Virus record (IMG/VR): IMGVR_UViG_2531839450_000010
Location: 1-40,942 of that record
Reading direction: 5' to 3' (one strand)
Length of the DNA: 40,942 bases
Source: a virus
Lineage: Duplodnaviria > Heunggongvirae > Uroviricota > Caudoviricetes
Positions 22,298 to 30,793 of the stretch are shown piece by piece. Made by a program: the position numbers and the translations under genes. The notes under the pieces were generated by a model. It had not been told where the DNA came from and made no database searches. It saw only the letters and a list, made by a program, of their open reading frames with translations. Each line of letters starts with the position of its first letter. Within the stretch, counting starts at the first letter, position 1.

Positions 22298-25200
22298 TCA
22301 ACTCTCGCGTAGTCATTCATCAACGGATCATCAATTGACAGTGGTACCGTGCGCATAACGCCCGGCTGAGGCGTGCTGACCTTTACGACAGTTCCCTGGC
22401 CTTTCGCCGAGTCTTTGGTGTGCTCTTCAATCCTGGCAAGCAATGAGGTCATCTGCGCAAACAGCCGCTTCGTTTCACCATCAAGTGAAACGGTATTATC
22501 AGCCAACTGCATTGTCGGCTTGGCACCGGAGCCGCCAAGGTCACTAATAACCTGTCCGTCTATCTGCATACGACCGGTTGGTTGCTGCAAATCGTTGGCG
22601 GCAGTCGTCACCTTGGACGTGGAGGCTGGTTCAGGCGCATTATTTTTCCGCATCCCCGGCGAGTTGCGGAGTTTATCGAATAGTCCATCAATCTCCATTT
22701 GTGCGCCGAGTTGGTCAAAGTAACTTGAGTTGTTGGCCACCGGACGCGCCTCTTCAACTGGCATCGGAGTATCAACATACACATTGCCAGCTGCTGTTGC
22801 GGTCCCCTTCCCTCGTGCACGTTCTTCGAGCGTTCCCTGAACGACTTCCCGACGCATACCCCGGCCATTCATGAATTTGTTGACCAGATCGTTAACGCCA
22901 ACAGCATTGCCGATTTTGTCTACCAGACCGCCTTTCTCAAACGGGCTATCACCAGGGGTAAATGCCAGGCCAGTAGACTGATCGATAACAGCGTTATCAG
23001 GCAGTGGTCCCCTCACTCCATATTGCGCCCCACCCTGTGCTCCTGCTCCAGGTGTATAGATTTCACCACCTAAATAGCGAGCACGATGAGTATTGACCTT
23101 GATCGCGTACTCACGGTTTTCTTTGGATAAGTCACCTGTGCCTTTTTTCCACTTATTGATAGTGCCAAACCCAGCGTTATATGCAGTGATGGCCTCGTTT
23201 AAGTCTCCATTGGCTTGCTTCAGATACTTGCTCATGAGAAGAGCCGCAGCTTCTGCCGATTTCACAGGATCAAACGATTCACCTTCAGCTAAGCCAGTCT
23301 CTTCACGAGCAATCCCCGTGAACTGAAACATTCCCAGAGCACCGGTTTGGGATTTTGCATACGGATTACCACCAGATTCAGTTGCAGCAATCGCGTAAAG
23401 AGTGCCTTCTGGAAGACCGTATTTATTCTCTAGTTCGGCAAAATACGGAGCCAACTTATCGAGATTTGCCTTACCTTCAGCGCCAAGACTTCCGACTTTT
23501 ACATCTAAGTTGCCATTGTTGTAAGTATCCGCAGCTTTCTGAATGTCATTCCTGGTGCCAGTAGTATTAAGCGACGATGATGATGAGCTATTTTGACCAA
23601 TAGCATTATCAATTTTCTGCAACGCGCTATTGCCCGTTTCTACGGCATTTGCATTGATAATCTGATTGGCAGTTTCTTTAACTGTTTTATTGCTATCTTT
23701 CGCCGTATCTAGGGATGCATTTACAACACGAGTGACAATATTAGCCTTTTTAGGGGTATATTCAGTCTTAGGAGCATTGTCCTCCTGACTTTCTTTAGCT
23801 GGTGTTTTTAATTCAGGTGTAACCTCTTTCGCATCCGCTTTGTTGACTAGCTTTGATGCAACCCAGGCCACAGGGGTGCTCTGAACAGCGGCATCTGCAA
23901 CCTCACCTGAAAGCTCTTTTGCGGCACTCCATAGATTACTGCCAGCTTCTTTAATGTATTTCCCTGGGTTCTTAATGAAATCAATTGCACTATCAATTGC
24001 ATCACTGAAAACCTGTTTCAGGTTATCGACAGTAAAGAAGTTTTTGATGGCGTCTAATTTTTCGTTCAGGTTCTTTGTTGTGTCACTGAACCATGCTGAA
24101 ATAGCATCACCAATCTTTGCAGTATAATCACTAAATGTCGTGGATATAGTATCACCAAGGTTAGAAATATATGTTTCTAAATTGGTAATCCCACTATCAA
24201 TGGCCTGGGCAATACTTTCCGTCGAAAATGATTGCAACATATTGCCGATATCCTCAAATCCAAGTGATTTGAGAACGCCGCCAATGGCACTGCTAATACC
24301 AGATACCAGTCCTCCCATATCGAGAACGTTAGCCAGTGTATAAGCCGCTTTTTGCTGAAAAGATGGATCTTCCCCATCCTTAAGCCCAAAGGTCCGACGT
24401 TGTGCTTCTGTATCATTCCAACCGGTTACCGCATCATAGATACCTCCAGCCACCGTGCCGACTAGCGGAATTGCGCGTAAAGCCCCCTTTGCAAGAGCCT
24501 TAACACCTAGTTTCCCCAATCCCTTAGTTGCAAGTTTTCCGGCACCGCGAGTAGCCAATTCGCCAGCTTCTTTGGCAGCAGCTTTTTTCCCACCAAAGCC
24601 CAATAAGCTTGCAACTTTTTTTATACCTAAAGCGCCTAGTGCCATCGAGCCAACTTTCTTTAGTACCCCACGGCCAAAAATAAGGGAAGCAATACCACCG
24701 GCCCCCTTCCCTAACAGGCTAAATAGTTTGGACAGCAAGCCGCCCTTCTTTTTCCCGGTGTTTTTGGCTATCTGATCAAGGGCGCTGAGAATCTTGTCAT
24801 TGCCCTCTTTAATTTCGCTGGTCTGCTCCTGAAGTTCCTGAACCGTCCGTTTTTGGGTGTTAACCTGAACGACATCGGCACTATTTTGCGATTTACGCCT
24901 AAAAAAACCTTTTCTACGGCTGTTATCGTCATTGCCACGAATCACATCGGCAATAGACTTTCTGGCACCATTAAGCGATCCGCCAACTTCTTTTGATATC
25001 CCGCCAAGCTCCTTCCCTGCTGCCCACAATGGACCTGCAACGGCATAACCTAACGCATCGACAGCACGAGTCTCTGAAGGGTTACCTATGCCTTCAGCTA
25101 CTTTTGACAGTTTTTTTAATAAACCTGATTCAGCATTTAGACGCTCATCATCCTCTTTGCGCCTGGCCTTTTCAGCACGTTCAGCACGGGCATCTTCCGC

Positions 25201-27291: not shown

Positions 27292-27882
<591 letters not shown>

Positions 27883-27916
27883 TTAACCGATTCTACGAGT
27901 AGTCATTTGTGACAGG

Positions 27917-28393
27917 TCATTTTGCGCGCTTCAGGCAGCCATCTTCAGGTGCCGCGTTGAAAAGCTCTGCGGCCTTACGTAGCGTAAATGTTGCGATTTT
28001 TTTTCCGTCTACGTATGCATCGAATGTTTTAACTTCCATATCAGGGGTATCTGACCAAAAACCATACCAGTAACTATCACCCACAGAGGAACCGATAGAA
28101 CTGATAGGATATTCATCATCACCAACTTTCAGCGTTATTTGTTCTTTTTTAGCATCAAATGACTCACCGCCAGGTTCTGTTTTCATGAGAGTGAGTAGTC
28201 GTGTTCCTACTTGATTGGGATCCGTATTATTAAATCCAACATCGCACTCAAATGTAAGCGTATAATTATCTTTGCTGGAAACAGCATAAGAACGAACACC
28301 ATGAGTCTCGCCGGTTGACCATTTGCTTACATTTGCCATTGATGAAAATGGAGTAAGCAAAGCAAGAATTAGAAAAAATCGTTTGATGCGCAT
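27917..28393 (-). CDS. Secreted/periplasmic protein
   Basis: 158 aa with N-terminal signal peptide MRIKRFFLILALLTPFSSMA. Confidence 0.5.
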   Translation of the reverse strand: MRIKRFFLILALLTPFSSMANVSKWSTGETHGVRSYAVSSKDNYTLTFECDVGFNNTDPNQVGTRLLTLMKTEPGGESFDAKKEQITLKVGDDEYPISSIGSSVGDSYWYGFWSDTPDMEVKTFDAYVDGKKIATFTLRKAAELFNAAPEDGCLKRAK

Positions 28394-28454
28394 TAATTTA
28401 TCTCCTTTGGATATTAACGATTATCAATATTTTAATTGGTTATCCATAATATAT

Positions 28455-29102
28455 TTACCATTCATAGGGTAAATTAAGCGCTTTTAAACCTTGCTGGAAG
28501 GTATTAAGTGAGCCGTTCTTTTGTTGTTCCATTTGTTCGCGTGCCGCTTTCTCATACTGCTCCATCCGTTGGTTATACTCTTGCAATTCCTCTGGTGAGA
28601 GGTTTCCCATTGGGGAGTTTGTACCCGGCCCCCTGGCCCGCTCTTCAAGCGTACCCTGCACGTTTTGATGGCGCATTCCCGGGGCGTTTCTGATTGAATC
28701 AATGCCATTTCTTCCAACGTCTTCTTTATTAACGGCATTGCTCGCCACCAGCACACCCCAGCTAGGGATAGCAAAATCAGGAGCGGTTTCGCATGCCTTT
28801 ACCATATAATCGAAAGAGCTTCGATTGATCTCGTTTGCGTCGGGATTTAACAGGCGAGAATATTGATATTTAGCATTTTCGTTGGTTGCGACTTTATACA
28901 GTTCTTGCTGCACCATCGCTTCAGAAAGTTTAAGGCGTTTCATATCTGACAGTAACTTCTTGCGCATGGATTCGTCTTGACTGACAGCAAAGCCGTAAAC
29001 GTGCCCAAGGTATTTCGTATAATCGGTACAAATCTCCTTTACGCTTGATGCTGCATTAACAGTCCCAGCCATAAATAATAACGGTAGTAATAGTTTTCTC
29101 AT
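28455..29102 (-). CDS. Secreted protein carrying a Sit-like motif; candidate superinfection-exclusion (Sim-like) protein
   Basis: Likely start is the ATG at 29102 (GGTGAGG RBS); signal peptide MRKLLLPLLFMAGTVNA. Contains APGMRHQNVQGTLEERARGPGT, which matches GRGMRREVVQGTLEERARGKGT in the Sit-like protein. Lies next to the immI module. Confidence 0.5.
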   Translation of the reverse strand: MRKLLLPLLFMAGTVNAASSVKEICTDYTKYLGHVYGFAVSQDESMRKKLLSDMKRLKLSEAMVQQELYKVATNENAKYQYSRLLNPDANEINRSSFDYMVKACETAPDFAIPSWGVLVASNAVNKEDVGRNGIDSIRNAPGMRHQNVQGTLEERARGPGTNSPMGNLSPEELQEYNQRMEQYEKAAREQMEQQKNGSLNTFQQGLKALNLPYEW

Positions 29103-29198
29103 TATAACCTCACCTGCCTTATAACTCATTTAGGGTACATATTTTCGCCTTTAAAAAAAAGAGGTTATTAGATCCATTTGTGTATTTATTAAACAAAC

Positions 29199-29215
29199 AA
29201 TGCTCTAATAAATTT
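29199..29215 (+). promoter_or_regulatory. C1 operator-like 17-mer (Op51-like) at the immI promoter
   Basis: AATGCTCTAATAAATTT, one mismatch to the consensus; a possible -35/-10 pair (TTGTAT-N17-TATCTT) overlaps it. Confidence 0.7.
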
Positions 29216-29528
29216 GTATTTTTAAGTCACGAATGCTATCTTTTCGCATCATATTGACCTTTTAATCGTTCAGGCTTATAGTTCCGCCGTCGCAGCAAAT
29301 TCTGCGACCAGGTTTGACAGCCTGAATACTTACGCGGACAACCGCACATTTCCGATATTGCGGTATTTTTGTGTCCGTAAAACCACGTTACGCCCGAATT
29401 ATGGTGGGGCGTGATGGGGAGGCTTCGGCCTGCTGGTTTCGTAAGTGCCAGTCTGTCAACCCTGTCACGTCCTGCCACCTGTTTGACAGCGGGTCGCAGG
29501 TTGTTTATCAACTTACGAGGCCGTAACT

Positions 29529-29750
29529 ATGGTTAATGCCAATCCTTGCGCACGCCAAGAATTCATCTGGCGTTTCTATTCCTGTAAAAAACACCACTAT
29601 CACTTCGTTATCGCAGCAACAGAAGACGAAGCACGCTCCCAATTGCCTGATGGCCCCTGCATTTTTACTGCCCGTTTTTCAACTAACTCGCGCAATTCAC
29701 TTAGTTACTGGAACCTCCCCTTCTCTGCCGACGTTCAGGGGGTTTTATGA
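29529..29750 (+). CDS. icd: Small immI-operon protein (P1 Icd-like)
   Basis: 73 aa; stop overlaps the ant start (ATGA). A TTGACA-N17-TATCAA promoter-like pair lies about 50 bp upstream. Confidence 0.6.
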   Translation: MVNANPCARQEFIWRFYSCKKHHYHFVIAATEDEARSQLPDGPCIFTARFSTNSRNSLSYWNLPFSADVQGVL

Positions 29751-30793
29751 AAAAACCTCTCGTCACCCGTAATGAAATAGCCGAAGCGATCGCTTTGCAT
29801 ACTGCCTGTATGCCGACACGGGAGATCCCCGGCGCAATTGCTAACTATTTCATGATAACCAGGCGTTTTTATACCCGAACAGATAAGGCTGTGATCAACA
29901 GGCTACTGATAGCCGAGATCAGGGATTATTTGATTGAACAAGGACGTCTACGTTACGCAACAGTGGCAGCAGAAATGAGAAAGGAGGCACATAGAATGAC
30001 CGGTAATAATTTGAATGTTGAAAAACCAGCACCTGTTACGTCAGCTACGCCAGCACCAGCCGTGAATATTATCCCCAACACCGGAGACACAATCGACAGC
30101 CTGACACTGTTAAAGATGGTCAATGAGGCACGGAAATTATGTAGCGAAAAACCAGTTCGCAACAATGATTTCATTGCCAGAGTTAAGGATGAGCTTGATG
30201 GGGAGGGTTACGAAATCTTCGTAACCCCTATGGATAAGAAAAAAGGTGGAGCGGATCAGGTAGTTATAGTAATGACATACAAACAAGCCCTGCGCGTTGC
30301 TGCTCGCGAATCGAAAGCGGTCCGCCGTTCGCTGATCGACAAACTGGAAGAATTGCAGCAGGCAAACTCCCCTACCCCATCGATCCCCCAAACATTACCA
30401 GAAGCCCTACGCCTGGCTGCCGAGTTGGCAGAACAGAAATTGCAGCTGGAACAACAGCTGGTGGCCGCAGCCCCTAAAGTCGATTTTGCCGACCGGGTAT
30501 CAGTGGCTAATGGAATCCTGATCGGGAACTTTGCAAAGGTCGTTGGACTTAAGCAAAACGCCCTTTTCTCATGGTTGCGCCAGAACGGCATTCTCATGGC
30601 TTTTGGTGCGCGCAAAAACGTACCGCGCCAGCAGTACATTAACGCCGGGTATTTCACGGTGAAAGAAGTGGTGCTGGATGATGAAAATGGCTACCAGATA
30701 CGGCTGACGCCCCAATTAACGGGTAAAGGCCAGCAGTGGTTAACTCGCAAGCTACTTGATGCTGGTTTGTTAAAACCAGTAGCAATAGGTTAA
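29747..30793 (+). CDS. ant: Antirepressor Ant1 with a KilAC/ANT C-terminal domain; an internal in-frame start at 29996 would give Ant2
   Basis: 348 aa. The C-terminal domain (PKVDFADRVSVANGILIGNFAKV...GKGQQWLTRKLLDAG) is paralogous to the KilA C-terminus. A strong AGGAGG SD sits 8 nt before the internal ATG at 29996. Confidence 0.7.
   Translation: MKKPLVTRNEIAEAIALHTACMPTREIPGAIANYFMITRRFYTRTDKAVINRLLIAEIRDYLIEQGRLRYATVAAEMRKEAHRMTGNNLNVEKPAPVTSATPAPAVNIIPNTGDTIDSLTLLKMVNEARKLCSEKPVRNNDFIARVKDELDGEGYEIFVTPMDKKKGGADQVVIVMTYKQALRVAARESKAVRRSLIDKLEELQQANSPTPSIPQTLPEALRLAAELAEQKLQLEQQLVAAAPKVDFADRVSVANGILIGNFAKVVGLKQNALFSWLRQNGILMAFGARKNVPRQQYINAGYFTVKEVVLDDENGYQIRLTPQLTGKGQQWLTRKLLDAGLLKPVAIG

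What the first reader, a model, noticed from the sequence alone, without database searches (positions are those of the whole stretch)
27917..29102. Two adjacent signal-peptide proteins transcribed divergently from immI
Both the 158-aa and the ~215-aa proteins carry classic Sec signal peptides and sit between the virion genes and the immunity region. Exported phage proteins at an immunity locus are typical of superinfection-exclusion or lysogenic-conversion functions.
Basis: inference. Interest (0 to 1): 0.45.

Follow-up and report, generated by a model that had tools for sequence, protein, structure and literature searches.

The report
Secreted protein pair in P1 sim slot
A P1-like phage carries, where phage P1 keeps its superinfection-exclusion (sim) genes, two exported proteins of untested function: the full-length form of P1's stub gene simA, which copies a short motif of the phage's own injected tail protein Sit, and a YfjT-family protein.

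Summary
There are two minus-strand genes, orf158 (27917-28393) and orf215 (28455-29102). Both have rule-based Sec signal peptides and conserved cysteine pairs. They lie between the late operon pmgC-tub-pmgB-sit and immI (c4 RNA, icd, ant).

The window is a P1-like phage-plasmid, and this slot is the known variable simABC region. P1 holds simC-simB-simA there, P7 holds DUF5384 plus a lipoprotein, and at least two further alleles exist.

orf215 is the intact orthologue of SimA. P1's 52-aa simA is its 5' remnant, and one relative carries intact SimA-SimB-SimC. orf215 has a confident helical domain with no fold match. This is followed by a disordered linker carrying a 37-aa copy of a conserved motif that lies just after the transglycosylase domain of Sit, the tape-measure/injection protein.

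orf158 belongs to the uncharacterised YfjT family (PF27224). YfjT-type genes recur in other alleles at only 28-37% identity.

Neither protein is homologous to SimB or SimC, and SimC is the only proven exclusion protein.

An envelope-level exclusion role is plausible from position, export, allele turnover and the Sit motif, but it is untested.

The parts
27917..28393 (-). orf158: exported YfjT-family (PF27224) protein, 158 aa
28334..28393 (-). orf158 signal peptide (aa 1-20, predicted cleavage SMA|NVSK)
   Evidence: Rule-based n/h/c analysis. A20 and V22 invariant and N21 nearly invariant in the family alignment.
28455..29102 (-). orf215: full-length SimA-family exported protein, 215 aa
   Evidence: ORF. 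99% identical to gp35 of phage Ro157c2YLVW. Family restricted to ~90-kb P1/D6-like elements. phrog_3933.
29052..29102 (-). orf215 signal peptide (aa 1-17, predicted cleavage VNA|ASS)
   Evidence: N16, A17 and S19 invariant.
28728..29051 (-). orf215 N-terminal all-helical domain (aa 18-125) with invariant Cys25/Cys104
28590..28700 (-). Sit-like linear motif in the disordered linker of orf215 (aa 135-171: DSIRNAPGMRHQNVQGTLEERARGPGTNSPMGNLSPE)
   Evidence: BLASTP against the window's Sit, E 4e-9. Smith-Waterman score 101 against shuffles of 37 +/- 5. An HMM built from five Sit proteins only hits this ORF at 52.8 bits, E 1e-15, and nothing else in the six-frame window apart from Sit. pLDDT below 50 over aa 143-168. 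Translation checked.
28479..28595 (-). orf215 C-terminal helical (coiled-coil-like) tail, aa 170-208; it varies or is absent in family members
   Evidence: AF2 helices 170-196 and 199-208. Alternative C-termini appear in alignment A1. 163- and 179-aa variants end just after the motif.
28963..29129 (-). Stretch shared with P1 simA (P1 homology resumes here)
   Evidence: blastn breakpoint. SimA aa 10-50 aligns to orf215 aa 1-41 at 93% identity. Alignment A5.
29167..29193 (-). Equivalent of P1's predicted sigma-70 promoter PsimA (weak: TTTAAT, 15-nt spacer, TCTAAT)
   Evidence: Mapped from the P1 annotation through the alignment. It did not pass the consensus scan, so it is unproven.
29199..29215 (+). 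C1 operator Oc4 (AATGCTCTAATAAATTT); the right-hand cassette breakpoint against P7 lies at its edge (29201)
27890..27908 (-). Late promoter LPsit (-10 TAGAAT, -22 box); the left-hand cassette breakpoint (27910-27915) lies just upstream, 8 nt from the orf158 stop codon
   Evidence: P1 and P7 annotation mapped by blastn.
22771..22926 (-). The original motif in Sit (aa 923-974), directly after the SLT domain (aa 750-859) of the tape-measure/injection transglycosylase
   Evidence: Pfam SLT. Motif conserved in seven Sit proteins (the window's and six from relatives). Translation checked. Sit is the P1 tape measure (PMC9024508).

Best explanation
SHOWN. The window is a P1-like phage-plasmid. The stretch from about 27916 to 29200, between the late promoter LPsit and the C1 operator Oc4, is one allele of the known hypervariable sim slot.

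Its first gene, orf215, is the intact orthologue of SimA. It has a cleavable signal peptide, a conserved disulfide-capable helical domain of no known fold, a disordered linker carrying a copy of the conserved post-SLT motif of the tape-measure/injection transglycosylase Sit, and a dispensable helical tail.

Its second gene, orf158, is an exported YfjT-family protein with a mostly-beta predicted fold. Both genes are under purifying selection. Each can occur without the other in related elements.

INFERRED. Both proteins act in the periplasm as accessory functions that are not needed for lytic growth. P1 and P7 lack them, and knockdown of P1 simABC has no effect. The most likely role is envelope-level interference with genome entry of incoming P1-like phages (superinfection exclusion), the role shown for the allelic SimC.

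For orf215 the proposed mechanism is molecular mimicry. Its exposed Sit motif either occupies the partner (host or phage) that the C-terminal part of the incoming Sit must engage after tail contraction, or it docks onto Sit itself. Either would block murein passage or DNA translocation.

orf158 would be a second, independently swappable exclusion or envelope module.
For: - Slot identity and allelism: P1, P7 and Ro157c2YLVW comparison. Counts in PLSDB are this cassette 81 records, sim 138 and P7 type 167, against 505 records that carry pmgC. Further alleles were found. simABC is listed as variable region 4 of P1-like phage-plasmids (PMC9603915).
- SimA orthology. An intact SimA-SimB-SimC operon is present in L015.
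- Export.
- Nearly every gene in every allele encodes an envelope-targeted product: SimB and SimC, DUF5384 and the P7 lipoprotein (signal peptides annotated), a 3-TM protein, and the YfjT-like proteins.
- YfjT-like alleles are only 28-37% identical to each other although the pmgC flank is 97% or more identical. Such turnover is typical of arms-race genes.
- The cassette has low GC (35-43% against about 47%).
- The Sit motif is statistically robust and unique in the window. It is conserved in seven Sit proteins and identical in the Sit of P1, P7 and this window. At DNA level the two copies are only 65% identical, so this is not a recent gene conversion. The motif lies in a disordered linker. 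It is retained in natural truncated variants that end right after it.
- Precedents for tape-measure-directed exclusion: HK97 gp15 and TP-J34 Ltp (PMC10883804), and T4 Imm binding the T4 tape measure (bioRxiv 10.64898/2026.03.06.709160).
- simABC are non-essential for P1 plaque formation (PMC10695390).
Against: - There is no experimental datum for either protein.
- Neither is homologous to SimC or SimB, and neither matches a PADLOC model.
- P1's SimA is a 52-aa stub, so SimA is evidently not needed for SimC-mediated exclusion.
- 9 of 16 SimA-family representatives keep only the first ~12 residues of the motif.
- There is no covariation between the motif of the SimA-family protein and that of the cognate Sit in five elements.
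- The promoter is weak or unproven.
- Relatives have C1-operator cores directly upstream. The genes may therefore be repressed in lysogens, which would shift the role to early-lytic exclusion or to something else.
- The orf158 model is of only moderate quality (pLDDT 72), and its best fold match (IalB) has no known mechanism.
Confidence: 0.42

Rival explanations
1. Lysogenic-conversion or host-fitness factors. The exported proteins change envelope properties of the carrier cell (stress tolerance, serum or colicin resistance, adhesion) without acting on phages.
For: The cassette is widespread in clinical and animal E. coli and Salmonella plasmids. YfjT relatives sit in the cryptic prophages/islands of E. 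coli K-12 next to a lipoprotein and a small membrane protein. The closest fold to orf158 is IalB, an invasion-associated envelope protein. The lipoprotein of the P7 allele has a weak TraT-like hit.
Against: Nothing explains why orf215 should carry a copy of a motif otherwise found in the phage collection only in the Sit of P1-like phages and orf215-type genes. In every fetched relative the genes stay linked to the tail/injection operon (in one even without an adjacent immI), on P1/D6-like plasmid-sized contigs where contig length allows. C1 operators upstream in relatives argue against constitutive expression in lysogens.
Confidence: 0.2
2. Helpers of the phage's own cycle. These would be early, C1-controlled periplasmic proteins. 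They could temper Sit transglycosylase damage (protection from lysis-from-without or from self-inflicted murein damage at high multiplicity), or condition the envelope for release.
For: The genes have the same orientation as pmgC-tub-pmgB-sit and lie immediately upstream of it, with no terminator detected between. In L010 the pair stays linked to that operon without an adjacent immI. C1-operator cores lie just upstream in relatives. The shared motif sits next to the SLT domain of Sit.
Against: P1 and P7 lack both genes and grow normally. P1 simABC knockdown has no plaque phenotype. Frequent allele replacement is unusual for a core life-cycle function. This rival overlaps mechanistically with exclusion, since inhibiting an incoming Sit would be exclusion.
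Confidence: 0.2
3. orf215 is a degenerate PTP-like phytase/phosphatase, as suggested by the only Pfam signal.
For: PF14566 hit at 26.5 bits over aa 34-118, and the same family is precomputed for close homologues.
Against: The score is below the gathering cut-off of 27. Only part of the profile is matched (positions 47-132 of 158). The invariant Cys104 is followed by ETAPDF, with no Arg at +6, so there is no CX5R P-loop. The region is predicted with high confidence to be all-helical, which does not fit the alpha/beta PTP fold. More distant family members lack the hit.
Confidence: 0.02
4. Decaying, functionless leftovers of recombination at a hotspot.
For: P1's simA is such a leftover. Frameshifted or truncated orf215 variants are common in the databases (P0002-P0008, P0016, P0017).
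Against: Both ORFs are intact here and in 81 plasmids. They are conserved at 36-86% identity with saturated dS or dN/dS 0.14-0.23. Signal-peptide cleavage sites and Cys pairs are invariant. The apparent 92-aa YfjT 'truncations' are start-codon miscalls.
Confidence: 0.03

Closest known systems
Phage P1 sim (superimmunity/superinfection exclusion) locus: simA-simB-simC
   Same: The chromosomal slot is identical (between LPsit/pmgC and Oc4/c4). The orientation is the same and the upstream region is shared. All products carry signal peptides. orf215 is the orthologue of SimA (aa 1-41 align at 93% identity), and a relative (L015) has intact SimA + SimB + SimC in one operon.
   Different: SimC, the protein shown to exclude, and SimB are absent and have no detectable homologue here. 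P1's SimA is only a 52-aa stub lacking the helical domain and the Sit motif. orf158 has no counterpart in P1.
E. coli K-12 YfjT/YkfB family (Pfam PF27224; cryptic prophages CP4-57 / CP4-6)
   Same: orf158 is a sequence homologue (E 4e-11; profile E 8e-14). It has a similar length, a signal peptide and the conserved Cys pair. Both sit on mobile elements next to other envelope proteins.
   Different: Identity is only 24%. The neighbours differ (YpjK and the YfjS lipoprotein against the SimA-family protein; no homology). The family has no known function, so membership explains nothing mechanistically.
Tape-measure-directed exclusion proteins: T4 Imm, HK97 gp15, TP-J34 Ltp
   Same: These are phage-encoded envelope proteins that block genome entry after adsorption by acting on the tape measure protein (PMC10883804; bioRxiv 10.64898/2026.03.06.709160). 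orf215 has a sequence link to P1's tape measure Sit.
   Different: There is no sequence or fold similarity. Those proteins are membrane proteins or lipoproteins that bind the tape measure, whereas orf215 is predicted to be soluble and periplasmic and shares a motif with the tape measure (mimicry rather than a demonstrated binder). No phenotype is known.
P7 upf50.0 (DUF5384) / upf50.5 (glycine-zipper lipoprotein) cassette
   Same: It is allelic: the breakpoints are the same (27915 and 29201) and both products are exported.
   Different: The sequences are unrelated and the function is likewise unknown.
Bartonella IalB (PDB 3dtd) fold
   Different: Identity is 10%, there is no Pfam IalB hit, and the model is of moderate confidence. 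The IalB mechanism is itself unknown.

Membership tests
P1 SimC (Sim exclusion protein) | Sequence homology to SimC | tested here: not met
   BLASTP E of 7.9 or worse. hhalign of both family profiles against SimC gives probability below 1%, aligning signal peptides only.
P1 SimC (Sim exclusion protein) | Location in the pmgC-c4 slot, divergent from c4, with an exported product | tested here: met
P1 SimC (Sim exclusion protein) | Blocks P1 infection after adsorption when expressed | not testable with these tools
   Needs phage challenge of an expressing strain.
P1 SimB | Sequence homology to SimB | tested here: not met
   BLASTP E 0.2, in the signal peptide only. hhalign probability 0.2%.
SimA family ('simA domain protein') | Homology to P1 SimA, with the same position and the same upstream region | tested here: met
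   93% identity over SimA aa 10-50. DNA homology with P1 resumes at 28963. Database homologues are named 'simA domain protein'.
YfjT family (Pfam PF27224) | Match to the family, and homology to E. coli K-12 YfjT over the full length with the conserved Cys pair | tested here: met
   PF27224 is precomputed on all 16 listed homologues and named YfjT. BLASTP against K-12 YfjT gives E 3.7e-11, and the family profile gives E 8e-14. Alignment. The local Pfam copy lacks this model.
Sec (SPase I) secretory proteins | Positive n-region, hydrophobic h-region of about 10-12 residues, small residues at -3/-1, no lipobox | tested here: met
   Rule-based only. The features are conserved across the families. 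No SignalP run and no experimental processing data.
Bacterial lipoproteins | Lipobox L-x-x-C at the end of the signal peptide | tested here: not met
   There is no Cys within the first 24 residues (orf215) or 49 residues (orf158).
PTP-like phytase (PF14566) | Score above the gathering threshold, a CX5R catalytic loop and an alpha/beta PTP fold | tested here: not met
   26.5 bits against a cut-off of 27. No CX5R loop. The region is predicted to be all-helical.
Known anti-phage defence systems (PADLOC-DB) | Match to any model | tested here: not met
   No hits at E up to 1.
IalB (invasion-associated locus B) family | Sequence family match, or strong fold match | tested here: inconclusive

The most novel reading that the evidence does not exclude
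The SimA family is a previously unrecognised class of periplasmic superinfection-exclusion proteins of P1-like phages that works by mimicry. It displays, on a disordered linker, the conserved post-SLT motif (N-x-x-G-M-R-x-x-x-V-Q-G-T-L-x-E-R-A-x-G) of the injected tape-measure/transglycosylase Sit. This would compete with incoming Sit for its host or phage partner, or poison Sit directly. The motif would then mark a so far unknown, essential interaction step in P1 genome entry. P1's own simA would be a dead remnant of this system, and the hypervariable YfjT-like neighbour would be a second exclusion module.
Probability: 0.22. Interest if true: 0.72.

Novelty: new variant of a known kind. Interest (0 to 1): 0.48.

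Why it matters
P1 is a workhorse transducing phage, and P1-like phage-plasmids are common carriers of resistance genes in Enterobacteriaceae. What decides which of them can enter a cell that already holds one is poorly understood.

This analysis gives three things. It re-reads a textbook locus: P1 simA is a truncated gene. It shows that the slot is a multi-allele hotspot made almost entirely of exported proteins. And it gives a concrete, cheap experiment: express orf215 with and without its 37-aa motif, challenge with P1vir or P7, and map escape mutations in sit.

If the mimicry idea holds, it would point to the step and the partner through which the P1 tape measure/transglycosylase opens the envelope. 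That part of Sit is unresolved in current P1 cryo-EM work. If the idea fails, the locus remains an ordinary pair of accessory genes of unknown function.

Tried and rejected
- Family searches. Pfam, NCBIfam and PADLOC scans of both proteins gave nothing usable. The only Pfam signal was a sub-threshold PTP-like phytase hit, rejected on motif and fold. PHROGs gave only families of unknown function.
- Structure by sequence. Searches of PDB sequences with both family profiles found nothing.
- Sim and YfjS homology. Profile comparisons with SimC, SimB and the K-12 lipoprotein YfjS were negative.
- Recent gene conversion between sit and orf215. Rejected: the motif DNA is only 65% identical and there is no blastn hit.
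- Covariation. Element-specific covariation between the SimA-family motif and the cognate Sit motif was not seen in five elements.
- Obligate pairing of the two proteins. Rejected: L013 has the YfjT-like gene without SimA, and L015 has SimA without the YfjT-like gene.
- Truncated YfjT-like genes. The apparent 92-aa forms in NCBI contigs are start-codon miscalls.
- Promoters and terminators. The consensus scan gave no convincing promoter for orf215 and no terminator before pmgC.
- SimC homologue search. It returned only four near-identical clusters, so no SimC profile could be built.
- Literature. The P1 genome paper (PMC523184) is not held. Statements about the Sim phenotype therefore rest on the GenBank annotation and on my own knowledge of Kliem & Dreiseikelmann 1989 and Maillou & Dreiseikelmann 1990.
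Full report
**1. What is there**

The window is a P1-like phage-plasmid (Punavirus). Region 27300-29800 is 96.8% identical over its full length to phage vB_EcoM-Ro157c2YLVW. It matches P1 and P7 only in its flanks.

Two minus-strand ORFs occupy the finding's coordinates: orf158 (27917-28393) and orf215 (28455-29102). An in-frame upstream ATG at 29129 would extend orf215 to 224 aa, but the strong GGTGAGG Shine-Dalgarno sequence precedes the ATG at 29102.

To the left lie pmgC, tub, pmgB and sit, with the late promoter LPsit at 27890-27908. To the right lie the C1 operator Oc4 (29199-29215), the C4 antisense RNA (Rfam RF01695, 29397-29482) with its a1/b1 targets (RF03163, 29276-29328), icd, ant1 and kilA on the + strand.

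**2. Are they real, exported proteins?**

Both N-termini have a positive n-region, an 11-residue hydrophobic core and small residues at -3/-1 (SMA|N and VNA|A). Neither has a lipobox, and neither has any later hydrophobic segment. This is a rule-based judgement, because no signal-peptide predictor was available.

In family alignments the cleavage-site residues and one Cys pair per protein are invariant (C50/C153 in orf158; C25/C104 in orf215). That fits oxidised periplasmic proteins.

Homologues at 36-86% aa identity have saturated synonymous sites, or dN/dS of 0.14-0.23 where it could be computed. Both genes are therefore under purifying selection.

**3. The slot**

blastn against P1 and P7 places the breakpoints precisely:
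- Homology with both phages ends at 27910-27915, which is 8 nt after the orf158 stop codon and just upstream of the LPsit -22 box.
- Homology with P7 resumes at 29201, the edge of Oc4.
- Homology with P1 resumes already at 28963, inside orf215.

In the same slot P1 carries simC-simB-simA. P7 carries upf50.0 (DUF5384) and upf50.5 (a glycine-zipper lipoprotein).

In PLSDB, counting records that hold at least 80% of the query:

| Query | Records |
|---|---|
| This cassette | 81 |
| P1 sim cassette | 138 |
| P7 cassette | 167 |
| pmgC (any P1-like plasmid) | 505 |

So further alleles must exist, and I retrieved two:
- An E. fergusonii plasmid with SH3_3 protein + YfjT-like protein + a 163-aa SimA-family protein (L012).
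- An E. coli plasmid with DUF4760 + YfjT-like protein + a 3-TM protein (L013; proteins).

The simABC region has already been listed as one of eight highly variable, low-GC regions of P1-like phage-plasmids (PMC9603915). The cassette here is also GC-poor, at 35-43% against about 47%.

**4. orf215 is full-length SimA**

P1 SimA (52 aa, annotated as a 'putative superimmunity accessory function') aligns with the N-terminus of orf215 at 93% identity over aa 10-50 of SimA. It then diverges for a few codons into a stop codon, exactly at the DNA breakpoint. P1 simA is thus the 5' remnant of an orf215-type gene.

The family (28 clusters, several named 'simA domain protein') is confined to ~90-kb P1/D6-like contigs of Escherichia, Salmonella, Klebsiella and Cronobacter.

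In six relatives the order is SimA-family gene, then YfjT-like gene (with one extra 117-aa gene between them in L011), then pmgC-tub-pmgB-sit. In L010 this order holds even without an adjacent immI.

In L015 an intact 179-aa SimA-family gene is followed by homologues of SimB (59% identity) and SimC (44%). So the SimA-family gene is the usual first gene of the operon, and what follows it is exchangeable.

**5. Architecture of orf215 and the Sit motif**

AlphaFold2 with a 16-sequence alignment gives three parts:
- a confident all-helical domain (aa 21-120, pLDDT 90-95);
- a disordered linker (aa 143-168, pLDDT below 50);
- two C-terminal helices.

A PHROG hit of aa 138-180 to positions 929-972 of a 1130-residue family led to the window's own Sit. 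This is the 1132-aa tape measure and injection transglycosylase (PMC9024508), with its SLT domain at aa 750-859.

Evidence that the shared motif is real:
- BLASTP aligns orf215 aa 122-168 with Sit aa 929-971 (49% identity, E 4e-9).
- The Smith-Waterman score is 101, against 37 +/- 5 for 500 shuffles.
- An HMM built only from five Sit proteins finds, in the six-frame translation of the whole window, only Sit and orf215 (52.8 bits, E 1e-15).
- The motif ((N/S)xxGMRxxxVQGTLxERAxGxGT...GN) is highly conserved in seven Sit proteins (the window's and six relatives'). In L011 this holds even though the SLT region differs more.
- It is identical in the Sit of P1, P7 and this window. In the phage collection, the Sit-segment query found it only in the Sit genes of P1-like phages.

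Further properties of the motif:
- The two copies in the window are only 65% identical at DNA level, with many synonymous differences. Selection, not recent conversion, therefore keeps them alike.
- 7 of 16 SimA-family representatives carry the full motif. The rest keep only NAPGMRxQ, followed by a Cys-containing tail.
- Natural 163- and 179-aa variants end right after the motif. The helical domain plus the motif thus looks like the functional core.
- I found no covariation between the motif of a SimA-family protein and that of its cognate Sit.

**6. orf158**

All 16 listed database homologues carry the precomputed Pfam family PF27224, named YfjT. My Pfam copy lacks this model.

Direct comparison with E. 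coli K-12 YfjT (cryptic prophage CP4-57, uncharacterised) gives 24% identity, E 4e-11, with a profile E of 8e-14. The alignment covers the full length and both cysteines.

An exhaustive profile search found only 29 cluster representatives, mostly ~150-aa proteins. One is from a jumbo Klebsiella phage.

YfjT-like genes occur in at least three alleles of the slot. They are only 28-37% identical to each other while the adjoining pmgC is at least 97% identical. The short 92-aa 'YfjT' entries in NCBI contigs are start-codon miscalls.

**7. Relation to Sim**

Neither protein is related to SimC or SimB by BLAST or by profile comparison. Neither matches a PADLOC model.

The only link to the proven exclusion protein is therefore positional, plus shared operon membership through SimA. 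simA, simB and simC are dispensable for P1 plaque formation (PMC10695390). P1 and P7 naturally lack intact copies of both genes studied here, so these genes are accessory.

**8. Regulation**

The region upstream of orf215 is shared with P1, including the predicted but weak PsimA promoter (29167-29193). It did not pass a consensus promoter scan, and no terminator separates orf158 from LPsit/pmgC.

The window has only Oc4 nearby. Relatives carry one or two extra C1-operator cores at 56-146 nt upstream of the SimA-family gene, including L010, which has no adjacent immI. Expression may therefore be C1-controlled (early after infection or induction) in relatives. In this window it remains open.

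**9. Most likely function**

Shown:
- allelism with sim;
- export signals;
- purifying selection;
- rapid allele turnover;
- a slot filled almost exclusively with envelope-targeted products;
- a statistically solid copy of a Sit motif on a disordered linker of a periplasmic protein.

Inferred: the proteins act in the periplasm against genome entry of incoming P1-like phages. orf215 would act as a decoy or poison for the step that involves the C-terminal, post-SLT part of Sit.

Tape-measure-directed exclusion has precedents. These are HK97 gp15 and TP-J34 Ltp (PMC10883804) and T4 Imm, which binds the T4 tape measure (bioRxiv 10.64898/2026.03.06.709160). A decoy precedent, from my own knowledge, is periplasmic g3p of Ff phages occupying TolA.

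I put about 0.4 on exclusion overall and about 0.2 on the mimicry mechanism specifically. The rivals are lysogenic conversion unrelated to phage, and a self-serving early function such as tempering Sit's muralytic damage. A phosphatase role and plain gene decay are effectively excluded.

**10. Verdict**

The locus is common: about 80 sequenced plasmids carry it, and it is 100% identical in NZ_CP103469.1 and CP099080.1. It is annotated only as hypothetical, and the slot's variability is already published.

I found no record in the papers I searched of the following:
- the reading of P1 simA as a truncated gene;
- the Sit-motif copy;
- the recurrence of hypervariable YfjT-like genes in the slot.

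Interest is moderate, and the hypothesis is cheap to test.

Noticed in passing
window 29276-29530 (c4 a1/b1 targets, C4 RNA, a2/b2 targets): At the three short 'b' specificity sites of the C4 antisense system the window differs from both P1 and P7 in a compensatory way. The window has ACTTAC / GTAAGT / ACTTAC, P1 has GTTAGT / ACTAAC / GTTAGT, and P7 has GATTGT / ACAATC / GATTGT. The 'a' sites match P1. This looks like a third immI (C4) specificity, possibly heteroimmune to both P1 and P7.
   Followed up: partly
L015 480-2214 (Logan ERR4338330 contig): A divergent P1/D6-like element carries an intact 179-aa SimA-family gene followed by SimB (59% identity) and SimC (44%) homologues and then pmgC. 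This is a 'complete' simABC operon, which shows that P1's 52-aa simA is the truncated state.
   Followed up: yes
L006/L009/L014 7855-7923 (L006: 3855-3923), L015 336-404, L010 7935-7945: One or two C1-operator cores (ATTGCTCTAAT) lie 56-146 nt upstream of the SimA-family gene in relatives, including L010, which has no adjacent immI. The window and P1 have only Oc4. This suggests C1-controlled (early or lytic) expression of the operon in relatives.
   Followed up: partly
window 22550-22770 (Sit aa ~975-1048): Relative to four divergent Sit proteins, the window's Sit has a 43-aa insertion right after the motif. It contains a second, partial copy of the motif (DKLRNSPGMRKNN).
   Followed up: no
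L012 2834-4980 and L013 5798-7592: These are further alleles of the slot. L012 has an SH3_3-domain protein + YfjT-like protein + a SimA-family protein truncated right after the Sit motif. L013 has a DUF4760 membrane protein + YfjT-like protein + a 116-aa 3-TM protein. A similar 117-aa 3-TM protein lies between the two genes in L011.
   Followed up: partly
L003 3683-4204 (P7 upf50.5) as named in NC_050152.1 / NC_031129.1 / NC_042128.1: RefSeq names this 173-aa glycine-zipper lipoprotein (weak TraT-like Pfam hit) a 'DNA methyltransferase'. This is almost certainly an annotation error.
   Followed up: no
L008 8710-9192, L009 8759-9232: YfjT-like genes are annotated as 92-aa proteins in several NCBI assemblies, but the full ~157-aa ORFs with signal peptides are intact. 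The start codons were miscalled.
   Followed up: yes
NZ_CP071390.1 81617-85415 (hit H93): In one Salmonella P1-like plasmid the sim-type slot additionally contains a TnpB-family RNA-guided endonuclease gene. The slot therefore also receives IS200/IS605-type insertions.
   Followed up: no
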